Origin: a virus
Direction: 5' to 3' (one strand)
DNA: 64,000 nucleotides
IMG/VR virus record: IMGVR_UViG_3300017991_000003
Location: 1 to 64,000 of that record
Made by a program: the position numbers and the translations under genes. Shown here in pieces: positions 4,001-44,775 of this stretch (position 1 is the stretch's first letter; each line of letters starts with the position of its first letter). The notes beneath the pieces were generated by a model, which saw only the letters and a program-made list of their open reading frames with translations, had not been told where the DNA came from and did not search any database.

Positions 4001-6228
4001 ACATCACGATCCGCGTCAAAGACATCCTCACATCCGCCAATGTGCGCCTCGCTGATATCACGAACTTCACGGTTCCGATCAAGGAGACCGCGGACGAGGT
4101 CTTGGCCAAGACGCCTGATGGCGAGGGCTACTACGCCTGGGACCTGCGTGTCATCGGCATCGAGACGAGTGGTGTGTGGCCCACGACTGTCAACTTGATT
4201 GTTGATAATGGCAACGGTAACACGGATACCCTAACGCTGATCTCGGTGGAGTCAGCTCAGCCGTGCATCACCGAGATCACGGTCGATGACCCCACCCCGC
4301 AGGTTAGTGGTGGCGAGCCCTTCTGGAACTTCGAGGCTGGTATTGCGAACCAACGCACCCTCTACTTCCACACCACTGGGATCAACAACACCCTACCTGA
4401 CAAGCCGTCCTTCGTACCCACTACCGACGTGGGCCCGGGAACGCTGGCACCGGTGGGCAATGTCACACTGGTGTCGGGTGCTCCGCCCGCTGCGGCCATC
4501 TGGGCCCAGGACTTCCTGCGATCGTCCGACGTCGACGCGACGACTCAGATCTCGTTCCTCTCGAACACGGCGTCGAACGGAGACCCGAAGACTTGTACGC
4601 TCTCCTTCCCCGACTCCATCGAGTTCATCGAAGTACTAGGCCTTACCTATAGCGGCTCTGGCGGCGAGGGTGATCAGTCGGCAGGTACCGACTCCTCGAA
4701 ACTGGCTCGGGCCCAAGTGGTCTTCTCCAGCGCTCCCGAGGAGGGTCACTACTCCGAGTTCACCGTCTACGGCCGCTTCTCCCCGGCTGATGGTGCTGGT
4801 AGCGACATCACGGTCGACTTCTACGACGAGAACGGCAGCTCGGTGACCTCGAGTGTGACCGTGACCTCGGCGAGCTCGACCGCGGTCAGCGGCTACGTCA
4901 AGTTCGCCGACGACACCGCGCAGCGCATCCTGCGGGTGCGCGTGACCAACTCGACGCTATCGAAGACCACGACCGGCGTCCTCAACCGCACGGTTGTGAC
5001 GCACCCGGCGCCTCGCGTCCGCGGTGCGACCATGACCCCGCCCCACGAAGGGACGACCGGGGCGACGATCACGGTGGTGGGGTCTAACCTCACGCCCCCG
5101 GATCCGCCGACCGGCGCCTCGGCTCTCAGCTACGGCTACACCTTCTTCGATAGCGCGGCCAGCGCGGTCCTCTCGTCGGTGACCCTGGTCTCGGCCTCGA
5201 GCCGGCAGCTGGTGTTCACCGCAAACGTGGCTGCTAGTACGGCTGGCGAGACGATCGGGATCGCCATTGACTATCTGGGCGGCAACACCCACCGGGCCGG
5301 CAACCTCATCACGGTCCTCGAGGAAGAGGAAAACGACGCGTCTATCACCGACGTGCGCCTGTACGCCAAGGGCTCGGACCTCACGTCCACGACCCCGACA
5401 GCGCCGCAGACCTTCATCGACGGCACGGCATGGCTCATGGTCGTGGGCACCGGCCTCGGCGCCGCCAACGTAGCCTCCGACGGCACGGGCCTCTTCATTG
5501 AGGTGGTCGGCGAGCTCGATGACGGTAGCTCCTCGAACATCGCTGAGACGCCCCCGGGCCCCGGCACCACTGAGGCGCTGGCTAGCACGTCGATCTACCC
5601 CGGCACCTTCCGGGTCCAGAGCGACACGCAGCTCTTGATCGAGGTGCCCTGCACCCCGGCCTACTCCAACGCGCGTATCCGAGTGCACCTGGTCAAGCCG
5701 GCCACGCACCCTGATGGTGCGGTCGAGTGGGACCAGGCAGTGATCGACGACACGGGTGAAGGCACGGCGCGTAACCTGCCGAACGTGGGCTTGACGACTC
5801 GTTACGGGGCTGCGGCCCGTACCCCGAAGATCAACACTGACCCCACGGCCGGCGTCACGCACTACGACGTGGCCCGGGCCTTCCAGGCCAACAGCGGCGC
5901 CGGGACCGAGGGTGATACCTTCTCGGTGACGGTCCGTCTCGAGTCGGCGGTGACTACTGCGGACGCTCCGGCGGTCGTGGCAGTGGCTGACAGCACCTAC
6001 GGGGTCGAGTTCGAGGATGTGACGGTTGCCAAGACCGCTAATCCGCTCGAGATCCAGATCACGGTCACTGTCCCCACGCCTGGGGTGAACAACACCTACC
6101 CCCTGGCGGCGTTCGATTCGGCCACGCCGGCCGTTCCGGCCCTGCGCTTTGCTAACGGGCAGCCCATCGCGGCTGTGACCCTTGGCGCGAGTGATTGGGG
6201 CAGCATCTCCACTCAGGTTCCGTTCTAG
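1054..6228 (+). CDS. giant (1724 aa) putative tail fibre / adhesin-like structural protein
   Basis: Single uninterrupted ORF; Thr/Ser/Gly/Val/Asp-rich beta-type composition; no catalytic motif recognised; ATG at 1054 three nt after the preceding stop. Confidence 0.5.
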   Translation: MADQSYTTTSYITLKKPDSGSFQNIWDIPVNENWDTIAALFAGAVEVGHTHSGEDGQGPQLDHVDLLSVGSYTHAQIDAHIDSSPLHKNTQVQTISGDHLNSPSVTIVSNVSEIQFSNATVVDKGSGVVRVIALGTSTSPELYSKVQSAPVAWTDNFNWPHATSIGTYCWESVRTTDQHPEFLATGPAVGAPGTLARIELDGAVEPQGYALQHATCHVPHGTVQRVTLHVDRLEGPAGEAIDTTDDVTLTLDLLSATIGKSFDRPAAFGLSLVINKPAGSDTLDFALSLRPHGTDDNQEVIWTDFSGPLPSEYAGTFDQLPQAFLAGCHEFSLRRDPDEADAFWLQYYYNEGLVFRKYFSTLSADPTTALFASGLQDLVSNLGNWPTDPQPVYGRMGWGLGYNLVSGAQLICDVSCATVCSQDDVEVVTGPVTPYPEEVSPPGQAAASPCCPGYADFDGLAVGDAWDFDGPGLGLPEAQWTITGIIGDEYGTQNGPGFEVQNLSDGTYWPVFCAPPTLDTFTSNPISGYQVDQTVELTGISLPAGNDEHATLTITHGDSTWPLSWLTPGSSQFYNQGDTIAAGIITVSDLTWTAQPDGSSKLTVTYNTGPNLPWGRVLDFQVEPGYDVLLASDYTASWTAAVEVVAPPGIVTLPGFAGVVAYWDDVTDPANPEWVLADVLTPIPEGSWVYITVSAANWPMGATFWDEGNGFVGWTIQDTATGGVLPNGEYGINFLPSNGLSLLWSQFTPDTVPSDVGGTLPAFISGDEPPSSTAFTTLPPGYQLGTSALPSLGAVQMYAIIKLDDDYYTTQGGNTPVTLALRNPLTGSVMGTGDLPETLIPQVNPRAPVIDDASLSISTTTFTPGEEDITLSFKVSYLDAVDNTIELGLSSGWDATMPATVTIDGASPAPTMSLTDNGDGTVTVEVDNLKLGTSGAVRTYIKNSGISDTLPNQDSVAWGVVDTTTAPVIAQDSIAVYENAATDITIRVKDILTSANVRLADITNFTVPIKETADEVLAKTPDGEGYYAWDLRVIGIETSGVWPTTVNLIVDNGNGNTDTLTLISVESAQPCITEITVDDPTPQVSGGEPFWNFEAGIANQRTLYFHTTGINNTLPDKPSFVPTTDVGPGTLAPVGNVTLVSGAPPAAAIWAQDFLRSSDVDATTQISFLSNTASNGDPKTCTLSFPDSIEFIEVLGLTYSGSGGEGDQSAGTDSSKLARAQVVFSSAPEEGHYSEFTVYGRFSPADGAGSDITVDFYDENGSSVTSSVTVTSASSTAVSGYVKFADDTAQRILRVRVTNSTLSKTTTGVLNRTVVTHPAPRVRGATMTPPHEGTTGATITVVGSNLTPPDPPTGASALSYGYTFFDSAASAVLSSVTLVSASSRQLVFTANVAASTAGETIGIAIDYLGGNTHRAGNLITVLEEEENDASITDVRLYAKGSDLTSTTPTAPQTFIDGTAWLMVVGTGLGAANVASDGTGLFIEVVGELDDGSSSNIAETPPGPGTTEALASTSIYPGTFRVQSDTQLLIEVPCTPAYSNARIRVHLVKPATHPDGAVEWDQAVIDDTGEGTARNLPNVGLTTRYGAAARTPKINTDPTAGVTHYDVARAFQANSGAGTEGDTFSVTVRLESAVTTADAPAVVAVADSTYGVEFEDVTVAKTANPLEIQITVTVPTPGVNNTYPLAAFDSATPAVPALRFANGQPIAAVTLGASDWGSISTQVPF

Positions 6229-8194: not shown

Positions 8195-8812
8195 GTGAAC
8201 CAGGGTGAGGCTCTCTTCCGATCCAAGGGCATCTGGCCCGGGGTCTACCAAGCGGTCCTGAACAAGAAGTTCGGGCCCGCCTGGCTTACGTGGGAGCCCG
8301 AGACCCTCTGGGCAGAGATCAAGCGCGTCTGGAAGGCTGAGCCGAGCGGCGAGATCCAGTCCAAGATCCTCGCTACCCGGATCGCGATGACTACCGACTT
8401 GTTCTACACGGACGCCCCGGCGTTCGAGAACATGATCCTGGCGGTCAACGATGTCGAGTATGACCCCGAGCTCCTCCAGCTGGCTACCCCGGAAGAGATC
8501 GTTTACGGTGTGCGCATGCTGTCGCCTTTGCGTGACGGCTCCTTCAACCGAGAAGTGACGGGCTACATCCGAGCCTGCTGCCGTCGGGCCGGCCTCCTGC
8601 GCTATCCCGACGACCTGCGCTTTGCTGAGCCGCAGTACCCAGACAACCTGGCGCGCATCGTCTCTCAGATCACCACTAAAGAAGCTGGCGACGACCTCGA
8701 CCCGCACGATACCGTAGCGGTGCAGTCCAACAATCTGTACCGGATCCAGGTGTACGTGAACGAGAAGCTGGCCCAGATGAGCACTGACGCTCTGACCCCC
8801 TCCACAGAATGA
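8195..8812 (+). CDS. hypothetical protein
   Basis: 205 aa ORF starting with GTG at 8195; stop overlaps next start. Confidence 0.55.
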   Translation: MNQGEALFRSKGIWPGVYQAVLNKKFGPAWLTWEPETLWAEIKRVWKAEPSGEIQSKILATRIAMTTDLFYTDAPAFENMILAVNDVEYDPELLQLATPEEIVYGVRMLSPLRDGSFNREVTGYIRACCRRAGLLRYPDDLRFAEPQYPDNLARIVSQITTKEAGDDLDPHDTVAVQSNNLYRIQVYVNEKLAQMSTDALTPSTE

Positions 8813-9339
8813 CCGAGACATGGAAAGAGGTCCCGGGCTACCCCGGGTACGAGGTCTCTGATCAGGGGCGGGTACGATCGTGGCGATCCAAACGCTACCC
8901 CGGGAAGCGTCGCAAGAAGCCGTGGGTTCTGCGCCCGTGGACGAACTCGGAGGGGTACCTCCGCGTCAGCCTTTGTAAGGACGGGAAGCGGGATACGCGG
9001 CTTGTGCATCGCGTAGTGCTCTCGGCGTTTGATCCTGACCCGCCCGCAGAGCGGTTCCAGGGAGAGCATCTAGACGGGAGCAAGGACAACAACAAGCTAG
9101 CTAACCTCCGTTGGTCGACTCCAAAGGAGAACAACGCTCGGAAGCATGAGCACGGTACTCAGCCGAAGCGCGGTGAGGAGTCACACCAAGCCCGTCTAAC
9201 CGAGGATCAGGTTCGAGAGATCCGTCGGCTGAAGGCGGAGGAGGGGTGGTCGTTCACCAAGCTGGGCAAGCACTTCGGTGTCAGCGATGTGGCTTGCTCC
9301 AAGATCGTTCGCCGTAAGACCTGGAGTCACGTCAAATGA
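8809..9339 (+). CDS. free-standing HNH homing endonuclease (NUMOD4-like N-terminus)
   Basis: N-terminal W-x-x-VPGYPGYEVSDQGRVRS motif; HNH core EHLDGSKDNNKLANLRWSTPKENN (about 9064..9129). Confidence 0.7.
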   Translation: MTETWKEVPGYPGYEVSDQGRVRSWRSKRYPGKRRKKPWVLRPWTNSEGYLRVSLCKDGKRDTRLVHRVVLSAFDPDPPAERFQGEHLDGSKDNNKLANLRWSTPKENNARKHEHGTQPKRGEESHQARLTEDQVREIRRLKAEEGWSFTKLGKHFGVSDVACSKIVRRKTWSHVK

Positions 9340-11231: not shown

Positions 11232-11611
11232 TGGGCGCCAAGGGCAGTGGGCGTACACGCATCGAAGCGGACCTGATGCCTCGGGTCCGTGAGGGCTTTG
11301 CACGTCGTCTCCAAGACATGGGGACGATGAGCAAGCTCGGCGCCATCCTGCTCAAGCCCAACCAAGGGACACAGCGCCGCATCCGGCGTGAGACCCTCAA
11401 TATGGACACGGTCGGTGATCAGAAGCGTTGGCAGATGCTGCACAACGACTCCGAGCGCTATGAGGTCATCACGGCCAAGGACAGCAACACCAACCGCGGT
11501 AACTACTGCCACGTGACCTACATCGAGAAGGGTGACGACCTCCCCCTCGTCAAGAGCGAGAGCGAGCTCCGTTCTGAGGATAAAGAGCGCATCAAAGAGG
11601 AGGGCGGCTGA
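11231..11611 (+). CDS. hypothetical protein
   Basis: 126 aa ORF; ATGA-type overlaps at both ends. Confidence 0.5.
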   Translation: MGAKGSGRTRIEADLMPRVREGFARRLQDMGTMSKLGAILLKPNQGTQRRIRRETLNMDTVGDQKRWQMLHNDSERYEVITAKDSNTNRGNYCHVTYIEKGDDLPLVKSESELRSEDKERIKEEGG

Positions 11612-14600
11612 TGCTCGAAGGGCAGCACTTCCGGCAGTTCAAAGAGGCGCTGACTCGGTCGGAGGGCATCGTCAAGGGTATGTTCCCGATCGAGAGCCCC
11701 ACGAAGCGGCTCGAGGTCACGAACCTGCGTTGGACGAACGTAGGCCCGGACGTGGTCTTCGACGTCGAGAAGCAGAAGCAGGCCAAGCTGAAGGAGCAGT
11801 CGATCAACGCTGTTCTGGTCGGTGACGTCACGCTGCGTGAGCTCGGCTCCAAAGGGAAAGTCCTCGACCAGACCAAGCGCTACCCGATCCTCTCGGTGCC
11901 GCACCTGACGATGAACGCTGGCTACATCGTCAACGGCAAAGAGCAGCAGGTCGTCAACCAGTTCCGTCTGCGCCCTGGCATCTACACCCGGTTCACGGGG
12001 GACGACAACGTCGAGGCGTTCCTCAACACCACGGCGATCGGTACTTACAAGATCCTCCTCGACCGCTCTACCGGTGTGATCCGTATGCGGGTCGGCACGG
12101 CCGCACGCACCCCGATCTACTCGGTTCTGATCGCGGCTGGGCTGACTGATGCCGAGATCAAGACACTGCTGGGGACGGAGCTCTACGCGGAGAACAAGCG
12201 GGCGGCCAAGCCGGATCAGGACATCCCCAAGCTCCTGAAGCGGATGCGCCCGTACCTCAACCAGCCGGCGGAGCTGGGCGAGAAGTCAAAGCTCGTGCGT
12301 CAGTATCTGGAGTCGAAGCCCCTCGACCCCGCCGTGAACAAGGTCACGGTGGGCGAGGGTCTCGACCGCATCGACCGCAATGCCCTCGTGGCGGCGATCA
12401 AGAAGGTCCTCAAGCTGTCTAAGGGTGAGGCAGAGCCCGACGACACGGAGAGCCTTGCCTTCAAGTACATCCTCTCGATCGAGGACTTCGTGCCCGAGCG
12501 GCTCCAGAAGGCGGCCGACGGGCTCAAGTACAAGATCCAGGGCGACATGCGCCGCCGGGATGAGATCCGCTTGATCCTCCCGCCCAACCGCCTGAGCCAG
12601 CCGGTGGAGTCCTTTTTCACCACCTCGGAGTTCACGCGCTACTCGAGCCAGCACAACCCGCTGGACATGGCGGCGATCTCGAGCCTGACCACCACCATGG
12701 GTGATGGCGGGATCTCGAGCTCCCATGCGATCACCGACGAGGTGCGTACGATCCACCCGAGCCACTACGGTCTCCTGGATCCCATGCACACCCCGGAGGG
12801 GTGTTGCAGCGCTGACATGGAGGTCATGACGGATCAAGGCTGGGTTGCGTGGCCCGACGTAGACCGGACCACTCGGTTTGCTTGCCTAGACGCTGATCAA
12901 GGCCTTACCTATCACCGCGCCTCCGAGCTACACGTCTACGACCACGACGGGCCTCTCTACGGGTTCAAGTCGGAGACCCTGGAATACCTGCTGACCCCGA
13001 ATCATCGTCAGTGGGTCCGCCCGATTGAGGATCGATCGACGCGTGGGTATCGGTTTGAGACCGCGGAGGAGATGTACGGTAAACGTCGGCGAGTCCGCAT
13101 CGGCGGGCATTTGGCCTACGAGGGTCAGGCCGTCGATACCTGGCAGCTCCCTGAAATCCCTAAGGGAAGCAACTCGCAGAAGGTTTTCCCGGCCTTTGCT
13201 ATTGAGGACTGGGCTGAGTTCCTTGGCTGGTACCTGAGCGAAGGGAGCAGTCGGGGTTACGTGACTTCGATCACGCAGTATGAGGCTGCGAACCCGGAGA
13301 ATGTGGCTCAGATCGAGGCGCTGTTGACACGCATGCAGGTCGCGTGGAGCCGCAGCTCCAGGAGCTTCTCGATCCCAGGTAAGCAGCTAGTCAGCTACCT
13401 GCGTCAGTTCGGCCACTCCGATACCAAGTACATCCCTAAAGAGGCGTTCGACTTCCCGGCGGCGGCGCGTGAGGCCATGCTCGAGGCGCTAATGCTCGGA
13501 GACGGTCGCAAGGGCAAGGGCCGATGCTCTTGCTACTGCACTACATCTGAGCAGCTCGCCAAGGACGTGCAGCGCTTGGCCTTCGGCCTAGGGGTGTCGA
13601 GCAAAATCACCTTTGAGCCGGATACGCGGGAGGAGCACTACCGCGGGTGCTGGATCGTCCATCTCCACGCGCTCACTGAGCGTCAGGTGCTGCCACAAAT
13701 GCGCGCAGCAGGTAACGGCCAGTTCATCGAGGAATACCAAGGCAAGGTCTACTGCGCCACGGTTCCTGGTGGCCTGCTGTACATCCGTCGAGCCGGCAAG
13801 AGCGGTTTCTGGTCCGGCAATAGCAAGGTGGGCGTGACCGGTCACTTGGCCCTGGGCGCGCGCAAGAAGGGGCAGACCCTCTACGTCCCGGTCTATGACG
13901 CCAAGACGGGCAAGCGCGTGGAGAAGTCGGTTCAAGACCTGGACCAGGCCACCATCGCGTTCCCTGATCAGTACGACAACCTGCCCGACAAGCCGGGCGC
14001 GTCGGTCAAGGGCAAGCCCACGACCAAGCTGAAGAAGGTCAAGGCCCGTAGTCGTAACGAGTTCACGGAGGTGAGTCCGTCGGCTGTGGACTACATCTTC
14101 GTCAGCTCCGACAGCTTCTTCAGCTCGACCACGGCTGCGATTCCCTTCCTCCCCAACAACGACGCCAACCGCGTCCTGATGGGTGACAAGCATATCGAGC
14201 AGTCGGTGAACCTTGAGGACCCCGACGCGCCGATGGTCCAGCACCGCATCCGAGGCCGGGGCTATGAGGAGATGTTCGGGGAGCGCCTAGCCCCCCGGGC
14301 TATCGACCCCAAGACCGGCAAGCCCGTCGGCGGAGAGGTCCTCGAGGTCACCAAGACGCATATCACCATCCGGCCGGATGGCGGCGGCCGTCGACGCATC
14401 AAGGTCCCGATCCACGACCACTACCCGCTCAACAGCCGGACGTTCCTGCACGACGAGCCGGTGGTGAAGAAGGGTGACAAGGTCAAGCCTGGCCAGATCC
14501 TGGCCCGCAACAACTTCACCAAGGACGGAGACCTGGCGGTCGGCAAGAACCTCCGAGTCGCCTACACCGCGTACAAGGGCTACAACTTCGAGGACGGCAT

Positions 14601-17600
14601 CGTCATCTCGGAAGGGGCGGCTAAGAAGTTGACCTCGGTGCACAAGTACGAGGCCCGCGTTGAGAAGGGCAAGGGCATCACGGTCGGTGCAGACGCCTAC
14701 GCTGCCGCCTACCCCTCGGAGCTGGAGCATATCCGCGACCGTGCCCGGCGCTACGACGCTGTGGGTGTTATCAAGAAGGGCCAGCAGGTCGTCAAGGGCG
14801 ATGTCCTGATCCCCGCCATCCAGGAGGTCGAGGCGCATCCCGAGTACGACTACAAGCGTCTGCACCGCAGCGCCGGTCTCCGGCACATGGATATCAGCGA
14901 GACCTGGAACCACGACTTCCCTGGTGAGGTCGTAGACGTGGTCAAGACTCGGACATTCGTGAAGGTCGTGGTCAAGAGCAAGGAACCGATGCAGGTCGGT
15001 GACAAGCTGAGCTCGCGCCACGGCGCCAAGGGCATCGTCGTCAAGATCATCCCTGATGAGGAGATGTACAAGGACGAGGAAGGTGCGACGATCGATATCC
15101 TGCTCAACCCGGCGGGGGTGCCTGGTCGCGTCAACACGGGTCAGATGCTCGAAGCCGCGGCCGGCAAGCTGGCCCGTAAGACGGGCAAGAAGTACTACAC
15201 CGACAACTTCAACGAGAAGGGCAGCACGATCAAGAACCTCCGCAAGGAACTAGCGGGGGCCGGGATCTCCGATGAGGAGACGATCGTCGACCCGAAGACG
15301 GGGCACAAGCTCGAACGCGTCCTCGTCGGCGACACGCACATCTACAAACTGACCCACCAGGTCACGGGCAAGATGAAGGCCCGCGCCTCTGTGGGTGAGC
15401 CCTACTCGGTGGACGAGCAGCCCGTGAAGGGATCAGGGTCAGGTGCCCAGCGCATCGGCATCCTCGACACCTTCAGCCTGCTTTCGGGCGACGCCACGGC
15501 GTTCCTCGAGGATGCCTTCGGCCTCAAGAGCCAGAAGAACGACGAGTACTGGCGTGCCCTCCAGACTGGGCAAACACTGCCGCCTCCGAAGACCCCGTTC
15601 ATCGAGGAGAAGTTCGTGGCCATGCTCATTGGCGCGGGCATCGACCTCAAACAGAAAGGCAGTCGCATCGACGCGGGGCCGCTGACGGATGCTGAGGTTC
15701 TCTCAATGTCCAATGGCGCCATCGAGCGCCCGGTGGCGGTCAAGGCATCGAACCTCAAACCCGAGCGTGGCGGGCTCTTCGATCCCGGCAAGACCGGCGG
15801 TCCTGGCGGCAACTACTGGAACCATATCGATCTAGCCTCTGAGGTCGTGCACCCGCTGATGACCGACGCTGCGGCGTCCGTGGGCGGGTTCAAGACCAAG
15901 AAGGAGATGGACCAGATCATCCAGGGCCTGCTCGCGGTCACCGAGGAGGGCGAGGTCGTGGAGGCAGGCACCGCGGGTGCCGTGGCCGGTGGCTCGGGAG
16001 TGAAGCGCCGACTCGCTACGATCAACGTTCCGAGGGCCATCAAAGAGACCGAGTTGGTGGCGGCGACCGCCAAGGGCGCCAAGCTGGACAAGGCCCACAA
16101 ACGGCTGCGCTACCTGCGCTCGCTTCAAGCCAGTGGCCACTCGGCTGTTGATGCCTACATCAACAAGACCCTCCCGGTCATCCCCGCCAAGTTCCGTCAG
16201 ATCGCTCCGATGCCCGACGGCAGCCTGAGTGTGGCTGACGCCAACCACGGCTACCGAGAGGTCCTTCTCATCAACGAGAAGATCAAGCAGCTGAAGGCTC
16301 TCGGAGTCGACGAGCAGAACCTGCGAGCACTCAACAAGGCTCTGGCGGACGCTACGGCCGGCCTCGTAGGCACGGCGCCTCCGATCAGCCGAGGCAAGGT
16401 CTTCCGCGGCTTCGTCAGTCAGATCCACGGCCCGACGCCTAAGTCGGGTCTGGCGCAGTCGAAGCTCATGGGACGCAACCAAGACCTGAGCGGCCGGTCG
16501 ACTGTGATCCCCAACCCCAAGCTGGGGATGGACGAGGTCGGTATCCCGGCTGAGATCGCCTACAAGATCTACAAGCCCTTCGTCATCAAGCGTCTCGTCA
16601 CCGCCGGCCACAAGCCGCTAGATGCCCGCTCCATGGTCGAGCAGGGCCACCCGGCCGCCCGTCGTGCGCTCGAGGTGGAGGCTGAAGACCGCCCGGTGCT
16701 GATGAACCGCGCGCCCTCACTGCACAAGTTCAACATCCAGGCCCTCAAGCCCCGGGTGATCGACGGTAAGGCGGTCGAGGTCAACCCGCTCATCGTGAGC
16801 GGCTACAACATGGACTTCGACGGGGATACGGCCGGTCTACACGTTCCGGTCTCTGAAGAGGCCCGGCGCGAGGCTCGTGAGAAGCTGCTCCCGTCGCGCA
16901 ACCTGTTCAGCCCTCGGGAGGAGTTCGTGGTCCATGCCCCGACCAAGGAGACGATCCTCGGGGTGTACCTGATGACTACGCCCAAGGGACTTGCCTCCAA
17001 GTCGTTCTCCTCCGACCAGGAGATGGTCAAGGCATACCAGGCCAAGGAGATCAAGGTCAACGAAGCGGTGAAGGTCCAAGGCGCTGTGACCTGCGCCGGT
17101 CAGGCCATCTTCAACACGGCGCTTCCTATGGATCTGCGCGTGGGTCGTACGTCGGTGACCGGTCCGCGTTTGAGCCAGCTCCTGGTTCGCATCGGTCGGC
17201 AGTTGGGCCCCGACCGGGCCGCTCAAGTGATCTCGAAGATCAAGGACCTAGGCAACCACTACGTGACCGAGGTCGGGTTCTCCGTGAGTCTCCGGGACCT
17301 TGAGCTTGATACGAGCAAGCGGGATCAGATCGTCAACAAGCTCAAACGAGACGCCAAGACCAAGGGGTTCGATGAGGCGGCTGGCGAGGCGCTCGAAGAC
17401 ATCGCAGCGCTGCTGGCGTCGGCAGAGGATAACCGGTTCGTGGAGGCTGGCATCACATCCGGAGCCCTAGGCTCCAAAGGCATCCACCGGATGCTGGCGA
17501 GCACCGTGGCAGTGACGGATCACAAGGGCAAGACGGTCCCGATCCCGGTCGAGAAGTCCTATGCCGAGGGCCACGATCTAGGTACCTACTTGGGTACGAC

Positions 17601-18765
17601 CCCCGGCGCCCGGAAGGGCTTGATCGACAAAGGCCTGAGCGTGGCGGATACGGGCTACTTCAGCCGCATGCTCGTCAACAGCTCGATCGAGAACCAGGTG
17701 ACCGTCGCGGACTGCGGAACCAAGTCGGGCCAGGATCTGCCGCTCAACTCCCAGGAGCTCGCGCACCGCTACGGCGCCGAGGGCCGCTACCGCAACGTCT
17801 TGATCACCTCGGACATCGCCCGCCGCCTGCGCTCCCTAGGCCAGAAAACGGTCAAGGTCCGTAGCCCTCTGACTTGTCAGGCGCAGAAGGGCGTCTGTCA
17901 GAAGTGCTTCGGCCTACTCGAGGATGGCAAACCGCCTCGCATCGGTTATCACGTCGGTGCTCTGGCCGGCCAGACCCTGGGTGAGGTGGCTACCCAGCTG
18001 ACCCTGCGCAGCTTCCACACTGGTGGCGCTGTTGGTGGGCCCGACCTGGGTTTTGAGCGCATCCGTCAGATCATGGAGATGCCTCAAAGCATCCAAGGCA
18101 AAGCCATCCTGAGCGAGGCCACCGGCCAGGTGACGCGCATCGACACAGCGCCGGCGGGCGGTAGTTACGTCTACGTCGGCTCCGAGAAGCACTTCATCCC
18201 CAAGGAGCTGGGGGTAGCGGTGAGTCGAGGCCAGCGCGTGAAGGCGGGGGATCAGCTGAGCAAGTCGGGTGTGATCAAGCCTCAGGAGCTGCTAGATACG
18301 ACAGGGGACATCAATCGTGTCCGTACCCATCTGATCAACGAGCTGGATGCTAACTACAGAGCGGCCGGCAAGAAGGTCAACCGCCGGATCTTCGAGACGG
18401 TGGTCAAGCCTCTTACTGACCGTGCGACTGTGACGGACGTCGGAGACGCCGGCCGCCATTTCCCGGTACATGCCGGGGAGGTCATGCCTGTCAACCAGAT
18501 CGAGGAGATGAACCGCAAGCTCAAGCAGCGCCGTCTTCGCCCGATCCAGTTCGAGCCTATGATCATGGGTATCAAGCAGGCCCCGTTCCAGAGCGAGGAC
18601 TTCGTGGGAACGCTCACCCATGAGAAGCTCAAGCGGACCCTCACCGAGGCCCCTAGCCTGGGTAAAGCCACGGACCTTGTGCGCGGCCACCCGATGGCCC
18701 GCCTGGGTCTCACCAACCTCCGATCCATCGAAGCCATCAAACGACCTCAAGGGGTGAAGCGATGA
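11611..18765 (+). CDS. fused beta-beta' multisubunit DNA-dependent RNA polymerase, intein-containing
   Basis: Beta motifs: SQHNPLD...HPSHYG...HTPEG, IPFLPNNDANRVLMG, GDKLSSRHGAKGIVV (14998..15033), VNTGQMLE, GAQRIGILDTFSLL. Beta' motifs in the same frame: NHIDLASEVVHPL, NMDFDGD (about 16807..16827), PSLHKFNIQA. Beta' N-terminal Zn-ribbon appears absent. Confidence 0.85.
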   Translation: MLEGQHFRQFKEALTRSEGIVKGMFPIESPTKRLEVTNLRWTNVGPDVVFDVEKQKQAKLKEQSINAVLVGDVTLRELGSKGKVLDQTKRYPILSVPHLTMNAGYIVNGKEQQVVNQFRLRPGIYTRFTGDDNVEAFLNTTAIGTYKILLDRSTGVIRMRVGTAARTPIYSVLIAAGLTDAEIKTLLGTELYAENKRAAKPDQDIPKLLKRMRPYLNQPAELGEKSKLVRQYLESKPLDPAVNKVTVGEGLDRIDRNALVAAIKKVLKLSKGEAEPDDTESLAFKYILSIEDFVPERLQKAADGLKYKIQGDMRRRDEIRLILPPNRLSQPVESFFTTSEFTRYSSQHNPLDMAAISSLTTTMGDGGISSSHAITDEVRTIHPSHYGLLDPMHTPEGCCSADMEVMTDQGWVAWPDVDRTTRFACLDADQGLTYHRASELHVYDHDGPLYGFKSETLEYLLTPNHRQWVRPIEDRSTRGYRFETAEEMYGKRRRVRIGGHLAYEGQAVDTWQLPEIPKGSNSQKVFPAFAIEDWAEFLGWYLSEGSSRGYVTSITQYEAANPENVAQIEALLTRMQVAWSRSSRSFSIPGKQLVSYLRQFGHSDTKYIPKEAFDFPAAAREAMLEALMLGDGRKGKGRCSCYCTTSEQLAKDVQRLAFGLGVSSKITFEPDTREEHYRGCWIVHLHALTERQVLPQMRAAGNGQFIEEYQGKVYCATVPGGLLYIRRAGKSGFWSGNSKVGVTGHLALGARKKGQTLYVPVYDAKTGKRVEKSVQDLDQATIAFPDQYDNLPDKPGASVKGKPTTKLKKVKARSRNEFTEVSPSAVDYIFVSSDSFFSSTTAAIPFLPNNDANRVLMGDKHIEQSVNLEDPDAPMVQHRIRGRGYEEMFGERLAPRAIDPKTGKPVGGEVLEVTKTHITIRPDGGGRRRIKVPIHDHYPLNSRTFLHDEPVVKKGDKVKPGQILARNNFTKDGDLAVGKNLRVAYTAYKGYNFEDGIVISEGAAKKLTSVHKYEARVEKGKGITVGADAYAAAYPSELEHIRDRARRYDAVGVIKKGQQVVKGDVLIPAIQEVEAHPEYDYKRLHRSAGLRHMDISETWNHDFPGEVVDVVKTRTFVKVVVKSKEPMQVGDKLSSRHGAKGIVVKIIPDEEMYKDEEGATIDILLNPAGVPGRVNTGQMLEAAAGKLARKTGKKYYTDNFNEKGSTIKNLRKELAGAGISDEETIVDPKTGHKLERVLVGDTHIYKLTHQVTGKMKARASVGEPYSVDEQPVKGSGSGAQRIGILDTFSLLSGDATAFLEDAFGLKSQKNDEYWRALQTGQTLPPPKTPFIEEKFVAMLIGAGIDLKQKGSRIDAGPLTDAEVLSMSNGAIERPVAVKASNLKPERGGLFDPGKTGGPGGNYWNHIDLASEVVHPLMTDAAASVGGFKTKKEMDQIIQGLLAVTEEGEVVEAGTAGAVAGGSGVKRRLATINVPRAIKETELVAATAKGAKLDKAHKRLRYLRSLQASGHSAVDAYINKTLPVIPAKFRQIAPMPDGSLSVADANHGYREVLLINEKIKQLKALGVDEQNLRALNKALADATAGLVGTAPPISRGKVFRGFVSQIHGPTPKSGLAQSKLMGRNQDLSGRSTVIPNPKLGMDEVGIPAEIAYKIYKPFVIKRLVTAGHKPLDARSMVEQGHPAARRALEVEAEDRPVLMNRAPSLHKFNIQALKPRVIDGKAVEVNPLIVSGYNMDFDGDTAGLHVPVSEEARREAREKLLPSRNLFSPREEFVVHAPTKETILGVYLMTTPKGLASKSFSSDQEMVKAYQAKEIKVNEAVKVQGAVTCAGQAIFNTALPMDLRVGRTSVTGPRLSQLLVRIGRQLGPDRAAQVISKIKDLGNHYVTEVGFSVSLRDLELDTSKRDQIVNKLKRDAKTKGFDEAAGEALEDIAALLASAEDNRFVEAGITSGALGSKGIHRMLASTVAVTDHKGKTVPIPVEKSYAEGHDLGTYLGTTPGARKGLIDKGLSVADTGYFSRMLVNSSIENQVTVADCGTKSGQDLPLNSQELAHRYGAEGRYRNVLITSDIARRLRSLGQKTVKVRSPLTCQAQKGVCQKCFGLLEDGKPPRIGYHVGALAGQTLGEVATQLTLRSFHTGGAVGGPDLGFERIRQIMEMPQSIQGKAILSEATGQVTRIDTAPAGGSYVYVGSEKHFIPKELGVAVSRGQRVKAGDQLSKSGVIKPQELLDTTGDINRVRTHLINELDANYRAAGKKVNRRIFETVVKPLTDRATVTDVGDAGRHFPVHAGEVMPVNQIEEMNRKLKQRRLRPIQFEPMIMGIKQAPFQSEDFVGTLTHEKLKRTLTEAPSLGKATDLVRGHPMARLGLTNLRSIEAIKRPQGVKR
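12802..13821 (+). mobile_element. intein with LAGLIDADG homing-endonuclease domain inserted after the conserved TPEG of the beta module
   Basis: Begins CCSADMEVMTDQG (block A-like), TPNH (block B-like), two LAGLIDADG-like helices (LGWYLSEGS, EALMLGDGRKG), ends ...FWSGN followed by Ser; flanks (HTPEG / SKVGV...IPFLPNNDANR) restore beta-subunit colinearity. Boundaries within a few codons. Confidence 0.65.
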
Positions 18766-19124
18766 CCAAGCGCAGCGCAGCCTACATCGAGGGTCTCCTG
18801 AAGGAGGCCGCAGGTAAAAAGAAGAAGAAGGAGAAAGACAGCCAGCCTAAGAGCTTGACTCGCTCCGACATCGACAAGGCCCGACTGAACCCGGACCTGA
18901 TGCGTCGTATGCGGATGCGTTCGAGCGTGGCTGTCCCCCTCAAAGGCGATGAGCTGCTTCAGGTGCGCCGGCTGGCGCGTCGGAACCTTCCCTTGATGCG
19001 TCAGCGCAACCCCAAGCTGACCGAGAAGGCCCTTTACGATCGCCTGGTGGCGCTGATCCAGAGCCGCCGGCCCGAGATGCGCAAGAAGCTCCTGGCAGCT
19101 GTAGCCACGGAGTACGGGACCTAG
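18762..19124 (+). CDS. hypothetical small basic protein
   Basis: 120 aa ORF; ATGA overlap with RNAP stop; Lys/Arg-rich. Confidence 0.5.
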   Translation: MTKRSAAYIEGLLKEAAGKKKKKEKDSQPKSLTRSDIDKARLNPDLMRRMRMRSSVAVPLKGDELLQVRRLARRNLPLMRQRNPKLTEKALYDRLVALIQSRRPEMRKKLLAAVATEYGT

Positions 19125-19126
19125 GA

Positions 19127-20422
19127 ATGCAGCCGCAGTATGGCGCTACCTCGTGGGCCGGGTTCGCGGAGTTCGCTGATTCCAAGGCGGGCTCCGGTGT
19201 CCACCACGTGGGCGTCGTACGCTCCTATGATCCCAGCAAGAAGCTCTACCTAGTTTCGGTCGAAGGCATCGGGGATCGACAGTGCCGCAGGCTCCTGACC
19301 GGCCTGGACAAGCCCATCCCCGTAGGCGGGGGCTGCGTGGTCGTGGAGCTCAAGGCCCGGCCGTGGCTCATTGTGGGGGAGCTGGATCGGATCTCCCGGG
19401 CCCCGGACAAAGCCCTCCCCGGGGCTAGCGAACAAGCTGCGGCCTCTGAGGCTGCGGTTGGAGCGGCGCTGACCCAGAAGGACCCGGCTCAGGCACCCTC
19501 CTTCCGCCCTCTGGATTACCAGGGGATGGCCGAGGAGCCGCAGTTTGCGGGCGATGCCGGCCTGGAGAACCGCACGAAAGACCACCTGAGGCGGTCTCGA
19601 GTGAAGGTCTACAGCTTCGGCGATATCCTGCTGTGGGCCTCTGGCCTATGCCACTCGCTGTATCACAAGGCCACCAACACCATCTACCGACGCTGCCGTA
19701 ACGAGATCTTCCAGGCAGCCGGCGTACTCCTCCAGGTCCTGACCCCTGCGGACGGGGATCAAGCGGGTAAGACGACCCGCCGATTGGTTCTACGAAGGAA
19801 CGCGCTGGATACGACCGTGATCGACAAGATCCGCTCTGAGGGCCAGATCCTGGCCTCGGACGGCGGGTCGGGCGATGAGCTCCTGATTGCCCCGGTTGCA
19901 GATCGCGGGGAGCGAACGATCTGGGGCGACCACCGTGCGGAGGAGATCGACAACGATCTGGGGACTTACCGGTTCCAGCAAGAGACGGGCGGTGAGCAGC
20001 GGATCACCGGTCAGGTGGGCTCCTTTGAGGCTGAGAACGCGGCGCACCCTGTTTCTGGCACTCAGAACCCCTCTACGCCCTCTGGCGTGGCGCATCCGGC
20101 CGCTAGTACGGCCTACGGGGACGCCGCAGAGGGGAACGTGGAGCGCGGTGTGCATCTCGATCTAGGGGGTCTCCGGGTAACCTACGACCAGGATCGGGGT
20201 GAGCTCGAGGTCCTGAATACAGCCTCTGAGGAGACTCAGCGGGTGATCATGAAGCCTGATCAGCTCCTCATGGAGCGGGCCGGGCAGTCCTTCTCGTTGG
20301 ACAACAGCGGGCTTACGATCCGCGTGAGCTCCTACACCCTCGAGGTCGACGGAGCTATCACGCAGACAGCCGGCGGGAATATGACGATCAACGCCTCTGA
20401 CATGGACGTGAACCTTGGCTGA
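19127..20422 (+). CDS. hypothetical structural protein (possible baseplate/central spike component)
   Basis: 431 aa ORF immediately upstream of the PAAR-like ORF; no catalytic motif. Confidence 0.4.
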   Translation: MQPQYGATSWAGFAEFADSKAGSGVHHVGVVRSYDPSKKLYLVSVEGIGDRQCRRLLTGLDKPIPVGGGCVVVELKARPWLIVGELDRISRAPDKALPGASEQAAASEAAVGAALTQKDPAQAPSFRPLDYQGMAEEPQFAGDAGLENRTKDHLRRSRVKVYSFGDILLWASGLCHSLYHKATNTIYRRCRNEIFQAAGVLLQVLTPADGDQAGKTTRRLVLRRNALDTTVIDKIRSEGQILASDGGSGDELLIAPVADRGERTIWGDHRAEEIDNDLGTYRFQQETGGEQRITGQVGSFEAENAAHPVSGTQNPSTPSGVAHPAASTAYGDAAEGNVERGVHLDLGGLRVTYDQDRGELEVLNTASEETQRVIMKPDQLLMERAGQSFSLDNSGLTIRVSSYTLEVDGAITQTAGGNMTINASDMDVNLG

Positions 20423-20699
20423 GGTCCAGCGAGAGGGTGACCCCATCAGCTGTGGGGACAAGCACGGCAGCGCTGCGGGGTTCCGCCTCAACGGTAAGCG
20501 TGTGGCCCTCCTAGGGGAGCTCTCGGCCGGCCATGACGGCTTCCCACCTACCCCGGTCCTCACCGGTGAGAGCCGTTTTCGGGTAAATGGGGTCCCTATC
20601 GTACTGGAGGGGGCCGCCTATGCGCCGCATACCCGCGGGGACACCACACACGCCATCCGGTTGGCGCAAGGCAGTGGCGTCGGCCTAAACGTATACTAG
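20415..20699 (+). CDS. PAAR-like spike-tip protein
   Basis: 94 aa; GDPISCGDKHGSAAGF...NGKRVALLGEL...GH...VNGVPIVLEGAAYAPHTRGD resembles PAAR repeat proteins; TTG start overlapping upstream stop. Confidence 0.35.
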   Translation: MAEVQREGDPISCGDKHGSAAGFRLNGKRVALLGELSAGHDGFPPTPVLTGESRFRVNGVPIVLEGAAYAPHTRGDTTHAIRLAQGSGVGLNVY

Positions 20700-20720: not shown

Positions 20721-21074
20721 ATGCCCGACTTCGCAACAGGAGTAATCCGAGTTCCTCCGGATAACGACAATGCGGCCTCGCCCCTAGCGGTCCGTCTAGG
20801 AGGGGTCTCGGCAGGCACAAACGCCAACATCGTAGTCGAGAACATCGGGTCTGCACGCGTCAAGGCTCGAACACGTACTACCGCCGAGACCGGTTCATTT
20901 GTCGACGTTGCCCCGGGCCGCCGAGCCCTTGTCGAGGTCAACGGCGTAGCCGGCCAAGCCATCACGTTGGACGTTTACGTCCCGCGTCAACCCCGTTTCA
21001 TTCACACTCACCAAACCGGAGCGCCGGTATCCTACCTACCGGGTCGCTTGACGGTCTATCGCGACGAAGCCTAG
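20721..21074 (+). CDS. hypothetical small beta-rich protein, paralogue A
   Basis: 117 aa; shares ASPL..V..G.VS, TLD.Y, PVSY..GR pattern with the next ORF. Confidence 0.5.
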   Translation: MPDFATGVIRVPPDNDNAASPLAVRLGGVSAGTNANIVVENIGSARVKARTRTTAETGSFVDVAPGRRALVEVNGVAGQAITLDVYVPRQPRFIHTHQTGAPVSYLPGRLTVYRDEA

Positions 21075-21075
21075 C

Positions 21076-21429
21076 ATGAGTTCCATCGGAGTCCTCCAAG
21101 TCCGGCCTGAGCACACGCAGGCCTCGCCGCTCAATGTGGCCGCCGGTAACGTCTCGCTCGTGGGCGAGGCTACCTTCACGATCCAGAACGTCGGGCACAG
21201 TGATGTCTGGTGCCGCCTCAAGAACACCAACGCGGCTACCTCGACTACCTGGGCGCGTGCTGTTCCCGGGCATCACGCGCTGCTGTCGATCGACGGTACT
21301 GCCGACGACGCCCTGACTCTGGACCTGTACAGCGCGGGACAGAGCTACCGATACATCCCGATCCACAACACAACCGCTGAACCGGTCTCCTACATCGGCC
21401 GCGTGGAGGTCACTCGCCATGGCAACTGA
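21076..21429 (+). CDS. hypothetical small beta-rich protein, paralogue B
   Basis: 117 aa; tandem duplicate of 20721..21074. Confidence 0.5.
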   Translation: MSSIGVLQVRPEHTQASPLNVAAGNVSLVGEATFTIQNVGHSDVWCRLKNTNAATSTTWARAVPGHHALLSIDGTADDALTLDLYSAGQSYRYIPIHNTTAEPVSYIGRVEVTRHGN

Positions 21430-42214: not shown

Positions 42215-42232
42215 TCCCGACGGACCTGAAAC

Positions 42233-44753: not shown

Positions 44754-44775
44754 GGCACTGGCTCCCAGTGTCAGA
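44754..44775. promoter_or_regulatory. 22-nt conserved element TGGCACTGGCTCCCAGTGTCAG (copy 2), palindromic core ACTGG-N3-CCAGT
   Basis: Exact duplicate of 26116..26137; overlaps sigma-factor stop codon. Confidence 0.4.

What the first reader, a model, noticed from the sequence alone, without database searches (positions are those of the whole stretch)
19127..20699. PAAR-like spike tip suggests a contractile injection apparatus
The 94-aa ORF shows PAAR-repeat-like spacing with conserved Gly/His positions and directly follows a 431-aa ORF that could be the central spike. With the large downstream sheath/tube candidates (38957..42985) this points to a myovirus-type tail.
Basis: inference. Interest (0 to 1): 0.4.

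Follow-up and report, generated by a model that had tools for sequence, protein, structure and literature searches.

The report
Phage tail spike with PAAR tip
The two genes encode the needle-like central spike and its sharpening PAAR tip protein for the contractile tail of a large uncultured phage; this is ordinary phage tail hardware, apart from a PAAR protein whose three repeats come in rotated order.

Summary
ORF 20415..20699 (94 aa) is a true PAAR homologue (PDB PAARs down to E 3.7e-10, PHROG 281 4.8e-12, NCBIfam PAAR 6e-11). ORF 19127..20422 (431 aa) belongs to a family missing from Pfam and PHROGs. Its profile matches VgrG-type beta-helix spikes (E 1.7e-6), and its AlphaFold model (pLDDT 90.5) best matches PVC, pyocin R2 and P2 gpV spikes. 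The 1085-aa ORF is a tail sheath with a large N-terminal extension (hhalign 97%, E 4.7e-11 to an annotated mycobacteriophage sheath; neighbouring genes score at background). The 250-aa ORF is called a tube only from its position and its homology to a virion protein of phage Arash.

The window is the first 64 kb of a roughly 175-193 kb phage contig. It is distantly related to Salmonella phage Arash, a myovirus by electron microscopy, and to Vibrio phage D69.

Two points are unusual. The PAAR is circularly permuted by one repeat (Cys motif first), an order also seen in 11 of 80 IMG/VR phage PAARs. The spike-PAAR cassette sits beside a fused beta-beta' RNA polymerase gene rather than after the tube gene. 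No complex model or PAAR fold prediction could be run.

The parts
19127..20422 (+). Central tail spike (431 aa). It has an N-terminal OB-fold (about aa 26-86), a helix (100-116), a beta-rich middle region and a C-terminal beta-helix repeat region (about aa 340-400) ending in ...NASDMDVNLG.
   Evidence: No Pfam, PHROG, NCBIfam or single-sequence PDB hit. The family has 72 representatives in the 1.8-billion-protein library. The 61-sequence profile hits spike beta-helices: Anabaena CIS All3320 1.7e-6, Francisella VgrG 1.3e-4, Vgr 3wit 3.6e-4, phiKZ gp164 0.013. AF2 pLDDT 90.5, pTM 0.77. Foldseek PDB top hits are the PVC central spike, CIS spikes, R2 pyocin spike and P2 gpV. BFVD hits include gp5/Vgr OB-fold proteins. 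hhalign to Arash virion protein gp238: probability 93.5%, E 2.3e-7.
20415..20699 (+). PAAR spike-tip protein (94 aa, TTG start, 8-nt overlap with the spike gene). It has three PAAR-type repeats in the order C-A-B (Cys motif first) and putative metal ligands C13, H40, H72 and H79.
   Evidence: Family and PDB matches.
38957..42214 (+). Tail sheath protein (1085 aa). The conserved sheath core lies in about aa 620-1075, preceded by a roughly 600-aa lineage-specific N-terminal extension.
   Evidence: hhalign of the 28-sequence family profile: 97.1%, E 4.7e-11 to Mycobacterium phage ScoobyDoobyDoo tail sheath gp118, and 93.7%, E 1.8e-7 to Phrappuccino tail sheath gp73. All neighbouring genes score E > 0.02. 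Match to Arash virion protein gp236: 99.1%, E 4.7e-19. One family member hits PHROG 279 'tail sheath' at 4.4e-4. No Pfam or PDB sequence hit.
42233..42985 (+). Putative tail tube protein (250 aa). The assignment rests on position only.
   Evidence: It lies directly downstream of the sheath gene. It is homologous to Arash gp237 (tblastn 8e-17) and Vibrio phage D69 0282 (9e-16), which occupy the same position after their sheath homologues. Arash gp237 was detected in virions by mass spectrometry. A 38-sequence profile found nothing in PDB or PHROGs, and hhalign to mycobacteriophage tube-position proteins was at background.

Best explanation
ORFs 19127..20422 and 20415..20699 encode the membrane-piercing central spike and its PAAR tip for the contractile tail of a large (about 175-193 kb) uncultured phage.

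Proposed mechanism:
- Three copies of the 431-aa protein form the spike. The N-terminal OB-folds dock under the baseplate hub or tube end, and the C-terminal strands intertwine into a triple-stranded beta-helix with a blunt end.
- One copy of the 94-aa PAAR caps that blunt end as a small cone held together by a metal ion. The likely ligands are one Cys and three His: C13, H40, H72 and H79.
- When the 1085-aa sheath contracts, the tube (probably the 250-aa protein) drives the spike and PAAR through the host outer membrane. The spike then leaves and DNA follows.
- The 8-nt overlap of the two genes suggests translational coupling, which fits the 3:1 stoichiometry.

Shown here: homology of the PAAR, the spike beta-helix and the sheath; the OB-fold in a confident model; relatedness to a TEM-verified myovirus whose homologues are virion proteins.

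Inferred: trimerisation, PAAR docking, metal binding, tube identity and translational coupling.
For: PAAR homology. After undoing the permutation, the protein aligns end to end with solved PAARs. The Cys and His residues are invariant across five permuted homologues; canonical PAARs and T4 gp5.4 use 3 His + 1 Cys (PMC10715212; PMC12407873).

Spike: the profile hits VgrG/CIS/phiKZ spike beta-helices. The AF2 model has pLDDT 90.5. The best Foldseek matches are the PVC, CIS, R2 pyocin and P2 gpV spikes, and BFVD returns gp5 OB-fold proteins. One family member hits Pfam PF21930, a beta-helical trimerization domain.

Gene linkage: a PAAR gene lies adjacent to or within about 4.5 kb of the spike homologue in four of five further lineages examined (L012, L001, L013, L014, but not L015).

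Sheath.

Phage context: terminase large subunit PHROG 675 at 2.9e-64, a weak major-head-protein hit, and a 174,660-bp contig.

Cultured relatives: in Arash the gene order is sheath, tube, spike, PAAR, and all four were detected in virions of a phage that is a myovirus by TEM. The head-to-tube module is collinear with Arash and D69.
Against: - The Pfam PAAR score (24.4 bits) is just below the gathering score.
- The spike has no hit to the Pfam gp5/VgrG OB-domain model.
- Foldseek TM-scores to solved spikes are low (0.2-0.45) with E-values of only 3e-3 to 5e-2, as expected when a monomer model is compared with chains from intertwined trimers.
- The tube has no detectable similarity to any known tube.
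- No baseplate hub, gp25-like or gp6-like wedge proteins or tape measure were recognised in the window; they may lie in the unseen roughly 110 kb.
- The spike-PAAR cassette is about 18 kb from the sheath and tube genes, unlike in Arash and D69.
Confidence: 0.85

Rival explanations
1. The 431-aa protein is a tail fibre or receptor-binding protein rather than the axial spike, and the PAAR-like protein is an accessory capping or adaptor protein for it.
For: Several BFVD structural matches are annotated 'tail fiber protein' in Bacillus, Lactobacillus, Listeria and Staphylococcus myoviruses. In relative L001, large proteins including a DUF2793 protein lie between the spike homologue and the PAAR; taking DUF2793 as fibre-associated rests on my own knowledge and was not tested.
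Against: The N-terminal OB-fold plus C-terminal beta-helix is the gp5/gpV spike architecture. The sequence-profile hits are all to axial spikes (VgrG, CIS spike, phiKZ gp164, R2 pyocin spike), not to fibres. The top PDB fold matches are central spikes. From established knowledge, PAAR proteins are known only on axial spikes. The 'tail fiber' labels in BFVD are uncurated.
Confidence: 0.07
2. The cassette belongs to a bacterial contractile injection system (T6SS, eCIS or tailocin), or is a cargo 'moron', rather than part of the phage's own tail.
For: The best PAAR matches include T6SS PAARs. PHROG 281 is filed under 'moron, auxiliary metabolic gene and host takeover'.
Against: The genes lie in one co-oriented block with the terminase, the putative major head protein, and the sheath and tube genes on a 175-kb viral contig. 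No T6SS or eCIS genes were seen. The PAAR has no toxin or extension domain (94 aa). The Arash PAAR homologue is a virion protein.
Confidence: 0.03
3. Spike and PAAR are made as one fused chain by a programmed +1 frameshift in the 8-nt overlap. This would give about one tip-bearing chain per trimer, as in phages such as P2 where spike and tip are one gene.
For: The PAAR frame is +1 relative to the spike frame. The overlap TTGGCTGA is conserved in L012, and L014 has the same 8-nt overlap. No obvious Shine-Dalgarno sequence precedes the TTG in the window.
Against: In L001 and L013 the PAAR is a separate gene with its own ATG, and in L001 a strong GGAGG precedes it. Short stop/start overlaps are ordinary translational coupling. 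No slippery sequence is evident. Free-standing PAARs are the rule (T4 gp5.4).
Confidence: 0.03

Closest known systems
T4 gp5.4 and free-standing class-1 T6SS PAAR proteins (V. cholerae VCA0105, PDB 4jiv; E. coli c1882, PDB 4jiw)
   Same: The size is about 94-97 aa with no extension domain. There are three PAAR-type repeats with GH..FPP, PH...H and GD...CG motifs. One Cys and three His align to the metal-site positions. The gene lies next to the spike gene. Matches are significant (4jiv 9.5e-9, gp5.4 6e-4 in native order; 2.3e-11 and 6.2e-5 after re-permutation).
   Different: The repeat order is C-A-B instead of A-B-C, a circular permutation by one repeat. As a result, profile models cover only about two thirds of the protein (NCBIfam profile positions 2-63 of 94; Pfam below its gathering score). 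The fold and spike binding were not modelled.
P2 gpV / R2 pyocin spike (PDB 3qr8, 4s37) and T4 gp5: OB-fold plus triple-stranded beta-helix central spikes
   Same: An N-terminal OB-fold is followed by a C-terminal beta-helix region. These are among the top Foldseek matches, and the family profile weakly hits 4s36/4s37.
   Different: At 431 aa it is much longer than gpV (about 211 aa, from memory) and has a beta-rich middle region of about 240 aa with no known counterpart. No lysozyme domain like that of T4 gp5 was detected. It ends bluntly and uses a separate PAAR rather than the fused iron-binding apex of gpV. No Pfam OB-domain or other family hit was found.
Salmonella 'orphan' phage Arash (OQ632216; gp236-gp239) and Vibrio phages D69, D148 and D181
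   Same: These are the closest cultured relatives. They share sheath, tube, spike (N-terminal half), PAAR and RNAP homologues and a collinear head-to-tube module. Genome sizes are 180-187 kb. Arash is a myovirus by TEM, and the four proteins are in its virion.
   Different: Identities are only 23-33%. In Arash and D69 the spike and PAAR genes follow the tube gene, whereas here they follow the RNAP gene. The D69 PAAR has the canonical repeat order. Arash encodes beta and beta' as separate genes, whereas here they are fused. The sheath here is about 380 aa longer.
VgrG-like spikes of extracellular contractile injection systems (Anabaena All3320, PDB 7b5h; AlgoCIS, PDB 7aef; Photorhabdus PVC, PDB 9qgm) and Francisella VgrG (PDB 6u9e)
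   Same: These give the best sequence-profile and fold matches, all through the C-terminal beta-helix repeats.
   Different: Those proteins carry an N-terminal gp27-like hub domain fused to the spike. The 431-aa protein starts directly with the OB-fold, so a separate hub protein is expected.

Membership tests
PAAR domain (Pfam PF05488 / NCBIfam NF033420 / PHROG 281) | Significant sequence match to PAAR profiles and to solved PAAR proteins | tested here: met
   PHROG 281 4.8e-12; NCBIfam 6e-11; PDB 9vyi 3.7e-10 and 4jiv 9.5e-9. Pfam gives E 3.4e-5 but 24.4 bits, below the gathering score of 27.
PAAR domain (Pfam PF05488 / NCBIfam NF033420 / PHROG 281) | Three PAAR-type repeats (hairpins) in one roughly 95-aa chain | tested here: met
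   Three repeats are visible in the sequence: REGDPISCGD..., LLGELSAGHDGFPP..., LEGAAYAPH...H. After re-permutation the chain aligns collinearly over residues 4-86 of 9vyi and 5-84 of 4jiv.
PAAR domain (Pfam PF05488 / NCBIfam NF033420 / PHROG 281) | Canonical repeat order (GH-FPP repeat, then PH..H repeat, then Cys repeat) | tested here: not met
   The native sequence gives two non-collinear matches: query 31-80 to target 5-54, and query 7-19 to target 74-86. Moving residues 2-27 to the C-terminus raises the score against all five solved PAARs: 43.3 to 47.8, 38.8 to 47.2, 30.7 to 34.1, 23.4 to 26.6, and 17.8 to 24.5 bits. The same order occurs in L001 and L014.
PAAR domain (Pfam PF05488 / NCBIfam NF033420 / PHROG 281) | Tetrahedral metal site made of three His and one Cys at the cone apex | tested here: inconclusive
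   C13, H40, H72 and H79 align with the conserved Cys/His motif positions of the solved PAARs shown, and are invariant in five permuted homologues. The literature describes a 3 His + 1 Cys site. Which residues are the actual ligands was not checked, and neither geometry nor metal binding was modelled or measured.
PAAR domain (Pfam PF05488 / NCBIfam NF033420 / PHROG 281) | Cone-shaped fold that caps the blunt end of a trimeric beta-helix spike | not tested
No complex prediction is available with these tools.
gp5 / gpV / VgrG-type central spike | OB-fold domain that docks to the hub | tested here: met
   In the AF2 model, aa 26-86 form a five-strand barrel at pLDDT above 90. Foldseek aligns it with OB-folds (IF1, TM 0.7-0.8 normalised to the target) and with the R2 pyocin and P2 gpV spikes. 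BFVD returns 'Gp5/Vgr OB-fold domain' proteins. The Pfam OB-domain model gave no hit, so this is met at the fold level only.
gp5 / gpV / VgrG-type central spike | C-terminal triple-stranded beta-helix | tested here: met
   Profile-to-PDB hits are confined to the beta-helix regions of All3320 (1.7e-6), Francisella VgrG (1.3e-4), Vgr 3wit (3.6e-4) and phiKZ gp164 (0.013). The AF2 model shows regular short strands at aa 340-399. Trimer formation itself was not modelled.
gp5 / gpV / VgrG-type central spike | gp27-like hub domain fused at the N-terminus (VgrG architecture) | tested here: not met
   The protein begins with the OB-fold after about 25 disordered residues. It is therefore gp5/gpV-like, not VgrG-like.
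Contractile tail sheath | Homology to the conserved sheath core domains | tested here: met
   hhalign of A4 against annotated sheaths: 97.1%, E 4.7e-11 over 330 columns, and 93.7%, E 1.8e-7. Thirteen neighbouring non-sheath genes of the same two loci all score E > 0.02. Pfam sheath models and the PDB sequence search gave nothing.
Tail tube (gp19 / Hcp / gpFII fold) | Sequence or fold similarity to a known tube protein | tested here: not met
   There was no hit for the single sequence, the 3-sequence profile or the 38-sequence profile in PDB, PHROGs, Pfam or NCBIfam. hhalign to mycobacteriophage tube-position proteins was at background. The fold was not modelled. The assignment rests on gene position and on Arash virion mass spectrometry.

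The most novel reading that the evidence does not exclude
The spike-PAAR cassette is part of a conserved 'ejection module' together with the fused beta-beta' RNA polymerase gene that lies immediately upstream of it. In this reading, the polymerase is packaged in the virion, as the Arash proteome suggests, and is delivered through the tail once the PAAR-tipped spike has opened the envelope. The rotated (C-A-B) PAAR would then represent an unrecognised topological class of PAAR that current profile models truncate and under-annotate.
Probability: 0.2. Interest if true: 0.55.

Novelty: new variant of a known kind. Interest (0 to 1): 0.33.

Why it matters
The finding assigns a tail type and four structural genes to a deeply divergent clade of roughly 170-195 kb phages whose proteins are missed by Pfam and PHROGs. 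At least 64 IMG/VR contigs carry the tube-position homologue.

It also links that clade to the 'orphan' phage Arash, whose sheath, tube and spike are annotated only as 'structural protein'.

The permuted PAAR is a small but clean example of circular permutation in a pseudo-threefold protein. It has a practical consequence: Pfam scores such PAARs below its threshold, and NCBIfam matches only two thirds of its profile, so they may be under-called in phage and T6SS annotation.

None of this changes how contractile injection is understood.

Tried and rejected
- Single-sequence searches of the 431-aa protein in Pfam, PHROGs, NCBIfam and PDB gave nothing useful.
- The first AF2 run, with 8 sequences, gave pLDDT 51 and was not relied on. 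Only the 61-sequence alignment gave a usable model.
- A nucleotide search of the locus against GenBank phages found no match.
- Sheath: the single sequence and the family profile found nothing in PDB. PHROG scans of 28 members gave only one weak sheath hit. Identification needed hhalign against annotated sheaths, which was prompted by a tblastn hit at E 0.5.
- Tube: every sequence route failed.
- I looked for gp25-like, hub and other baseplate proteins among the upstream ORFs and found none.
- The search for related loci with the 61-sequence spike alignment failed because no stretch was conserved enough. The 8-sequence alignment found only two IMG/VR loci.
- A literature search for a described PAAR circular permutation returned only irrelevant papers. 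This covers the open-access library only and does not prove novelty.
- Shneider et al. 2013 (tried as PMC3792578, an id from memory) was not found in the held library.
- I considered a siphovirus reading, because the terminase's nearest GenBank relatives include Bacillus and Listeria phages that I recall as siphoviruses. I rejected it once the sheath homology was shown.
Full report
**Observation.** They overlap by 8 nt (…CTTGGCTGA…). The window is 63% G+C with no compositional break at the locus. Genes run on the + strand to about 43,000 and on the - strand after that. An exact-protein look-up shows that the window is the first 64 kb of a 174,660-bp metagenomic contig; the same protein also occurs on contigs of up to 193 kb.

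**The 94-aa protein is a PAAR protein.**
- Pfam PAAR_motif gives E 3.4e-5 (24.4 bits, just under the gathering score of 27).
- PHROG 281 'PAAR motif' gives 4.8e-12.
- NCBIfam T6SS_PAAR_dom gives 6e-11.
- phmmer against PDB finds solved PAARs: 9vyi 3.7e-10, V. cholerae 4jiv 9.5e-9, 9f4b 3.2e-6, T4 gp5.4 6e-4 and E. coli 4jiw 0.035.

The ORF is real coding sequence. Against its 75%-identical homologue in L012 there are 43 synonymous and 23 non-synonymous codon differences, 13 and 5 of them in the first 30 codons. The TTG start and the 8-nt overlap are conserved there.

**The PAAR is circularly permuted.** In one search, HMMER split each match into two non-collinear pieces. Query residues 31-89 aligned to residues 5-63 of canonical PAARs, while query residues 7-19 (GDPISCGD) aligned to their C-terminal residues 74-88. 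NCBIfam likewise matched only profile positions 2-63 of 94.

I moved residues 2-27 to the C-terminus and searched again. The rearranged chain aligns end to end: 4-86 to 4-86 of 9vyi, and 6-84 to 5-84 of 4jiv with a single one-residue gap. The score rises against all five solved PAARs: 43.3 to 47.8, 38.8 to 47.2, 30.7 to 34.1, 23.4 to 26.6 and 17.8 to 24.5 bits.

The repeat order is therefore C-A-B: the Cys repeat, then the GH-FPP repeat, then the PH..H repeat. Canonical PAARs are A-B-C. PAAR is a pseudo-threefold bundle of three hairpins whose tips share a 3 His + 1 Cys metal site (PMC12407873; PMC10715212). A rotation by one repeat should leave the cone and its threefold docking surface unchanged; this is inference.

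C13, H40, H72 and H79 (and also H17) are invariant in five permuted homologues.

The same order occurs in the PAARs of distant clade members L001 and L014. L013 and Vibrio phage D69 have the canonical order. I scanned IMG/VR with the permuted alignment and kept 80 PAAR loci. From the sequences printed I counted 11 in C-A-B order (L016-L018, L020, L030, L032, L048, L049, L062, L064, L073) and 69 canonical; the script's 16 'other' calls were reassigned by eye. The permutation is therefore recurrent in phages and not unique to this locus. A literature search found no description of it, but that search covers only the held open-access library.

**The 431-aa protein is a central spike.** The single sequence hits nothing. 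Homologues are few in the word-indexed search (8). An exhaustive profile search of 1.8 billion representatives found 72. A profile of 61 of them hits, in PDB, only the beta-helix parts of axial spikes:
- Anabaena CIS All3320: 1.7e-6
- Francisella VgrG: 1.3e-4
- Vgr fragment 3wit: 3.6e-4
- phiKZ gp164: 0.013
- AlgoCIS 7aef_q: 0.013
- R2 pyocin spike, AfpX13 and phage spike or tail-tip proteins: weaker

AF2 with 8 sequences was poor (pLDDT 51). With 61 sequences it reached pLDDT 90.5 and pTM 0.77. The model shows a five-strand OB-type barrel (aa 26-86), a helix (100-116), a beta-rich middle region and regular short strands at 340-399. Foldseek's best PDB matches are the Photorhabdus PVC central spike, the Anabaena and AlgoCIS spikes, many chains of the R2 pyocin spike, P2 gpV and Francisella VgrG. 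E-values are 3e-3 to 9e-2 and TM-scores are low, as expected for a monomer compared with chains from intertwined trimers. OB-folds such as IF1 also match the N-terminal domain. In BFVD the best matches are uncharacterised phage proteins of about 400 aa (1.5e-10). They are followed by myovirus proteins labelled 'tail fiber' and by gp5/Vgr OB-fold proteins. One family member hits Pfam PF21930, a beta-helical trimerization domain.

The architecture is gp5/gpV-like: an OB-fold followed by a beta-helix, with no fused gp27-like hub and no lysozyme domain detected. The blunt C-terminus implies a separate tip protein.

**Sheath and tube.** The 1085-aa ORF has no Pfam, PHROG, NCBIfam or PDB sequence hit. 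tblastn against GenBank phages found Vibrio phages D69, D148 and D181 and Salmonella phage Arash, plus matches at E 0.5 to mycobacteriophage tail sheaths.

hhalign of the 28-member family profile against those annotated sheaths gives 97.1%, E 4.7e-11 over 330 columns (ScoobyDoobyDoo gp118) and 93.7%, E 1.8e-7 (Phrappuccino gp73). As a control, all 13 other genes in those two loci score E > 0.02. In Arash and D69, only gp236 and 0281 match, at 4.7e-19 and 8.4e-17.

The sheath core is aa 620-1075. The first roughly 600 residues are a lineage-specific extension.

The 250-aa ORF immediately downstream is homologous to Arash gp237 and D69 0282, which follow their sheath homologues. Neither it nor a 38-sequence profile matches any known tube. 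'Tube' is an inference from position.

**Relatives and context.** Arash is a 180.8-kb 'orphan' Salmonella phage with myovirus morphology: a 95-nm head and a 140-nm tail (PMC10585845). [quoted passage not shown] All four were detected in virions by mass spectrometry. The spike family profile matches Arash gp238 (93.5%, E 2.3e-7) and D69 0283 (72.8%, E 3.2e-5) over the N-terminal half. The module from the major head protein to the tube is collinear between the window and Arash/D69.

In the window's own clade the spike gene instead follows a fused beta-beta' RNA polymerase gene. The spike homologue directly abuts the polymerase in L001, L013 and L015. In the window and L012 one short ORF of 120-138 aa lies between them. 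L014 is cut at the contig start and has a helicase gene between the two. A PAAR gene is adjacent in the window, L012 and L014, one gene away in L013, about 4.5 kb away in L001, and absent nearby in L015.

**Mechanism.** A trimer of the 431-aa protein forms the axial spike, and one PAAR caps its blunt beta-helix end as a metal-stabilised cone. Contraction of the sheath drives the tube and spike through the outer membrane. In T4 the tip protein is dispensable for assembly but matters for fitness and for infecting deep-rough LPS mutants, so a similar conditional role is plausible here. The stop/start overlap suggests translational coupling.

Shown here: the homologies, the OB-fold and the relatedness to a verified myovirus. 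Inferred: trimerisation, capping, metal binding, tube identity and coupling.

**Rivals.**
- A tail-fibre reading rests only on uncurated BFVD labels, and the profile hits to axial spikes contradict it.
- A bacterial T6SS or eCIS origin is contradicted by the terminase, head, sheath and tube context on a 175-kb viral contig.
- A frameshift fusion of spike and PAAR is unlikely, because L001 and L013 encode the PAAR as a separate gene with its own start.

**Verdict.** The finding is correct and mostly ordinary: it is the spike-tip hardware of a contractile-tailed phage. The unusual points are these:
- The spike family is absent from Pfam and PHROGs.
- The sheath is extended.
- The PAAR repeat order is rotated.
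- The cassette sits next to a fused RNA polymerase gene.

The PAAR fold and the spike-PAAR complex remain unmodelled, and the tube remains unproven.

Noticed in passing
window 11611..18765 (+): A single 2384-aa ORF encodes a fused beta-beta' multisubunit RNA polymerase (Pfam Rpb2_6 5.5e-60, plus Rpb1 domains 1, 2, 3 and 5). Fused versions of 2009-2041 aa occur in relatives L001, L012, L013 and L015. The closest GenBank phage matches are Vibrio phage D69 and Arash. Arash encodes beta and beta' as separate genes, and beta was the most abundant protein in its virion proteome, which raises the possibility of a virion-packaged polymerase.
   Followed up: partly
window 12802..13821 (+), inside the RNA polymerase gene: A 340-aa insertion (RNAP aa 398-737) interrupts the conserved ...HTPEG|KVGV... 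motif of the beta part. It starts with Cys, ends with Asn and is followed by Ser, and it carries a weak LAGLIDADG_3 hit. These are the hallmarks of an intein with a homing endonuclease. It is absent from the 63%-related L012 polymerase.
   Followed up: partly
window 18762..20422, and L001, L012, L013, L015: The spike gene follows the fused RNA polymerase gene in every clade member examined that has the fusion. The two genes abut directly in L001, L013 and L015, and are separated by a basic 120-138-aa ORF (window 18762..19124) in the window and L012. In Arash and D69 the spike instead follows the tube gene.
   Followed up: partly
L016-L018, L020, L030, L032, L048, L049, L062, L064, L073 (IMG/VR contigs): Eleven of 80 phage PAAR genes retrieved from IMG/VR have the same rotated C-A-B repeat order, from several unrelated sequence types. 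L019 is 48% identical to the window PAAR yet has the canonical order, which suggests the rearrangement occurred among fairly close relatives.
   Followed up: partly
window 20721..21074 and 21076..21429 (+): Two tandem paralogous 117-aa ORFs (39% identity, E 2e-19) lie directly after the PAAR gene. They have no family hits. Homologues occupy the same position in L012 and L013. Their function is unknown.
   Followed up: partly
window 8809..9339 (+): A free-standing NUMOD4/HNH homing endonuclease gene (NUMOD4 3.9e-11, HNH_3 9.7e-7) sits just upstream of the 631-aa ORF. That ORF has a weak portal-protein hit in PHROGs (PHROG 2739, E 0.055). It is a second mobile-element signature besides the intein.
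   Followed up: no
window 38957..40800 (+), the N-terminal roughly 600 aa of the sheath: The sheath has a long N-terminal extension and an internal insertion that are absent from the 482-507-aa mycobacteriophage sheaths and mostly absent from the roughly 700-aa Arash and D69 homologues. These are probably surface-exposed decoration domains.
   Followed up: no
window 1054..6228 (+): A 1724-aa ORF has no hit in Pfam, PHROGs or NCBIfam. It could be a tape measure, a giant virion protein or a fibre, but it was not resolved.
   Followed up: no
window 44771..45619 (-), 46681..47208 (-), 51915..53525 (-): The minus-strand block carries a sigma-70 family protein (Sigma70_r2 and r4), a RuvC-like resolvase and a weak RecA_N hit, all from precomputed Pfam hits. 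Having its own sigma factor alongside its own core polymerase suggests largely host-independent transcription.
   Followed up: no
L096-L159 (IMG/VR contigs): Sixty-four IMG/VR contigs, many of 120-208 kb, carry a homologue of the 250-aa tube-position protein at 25-67% identity. The window therefore represents a sizeable, essentially unannotated clade of large phages.
   Followed up: no
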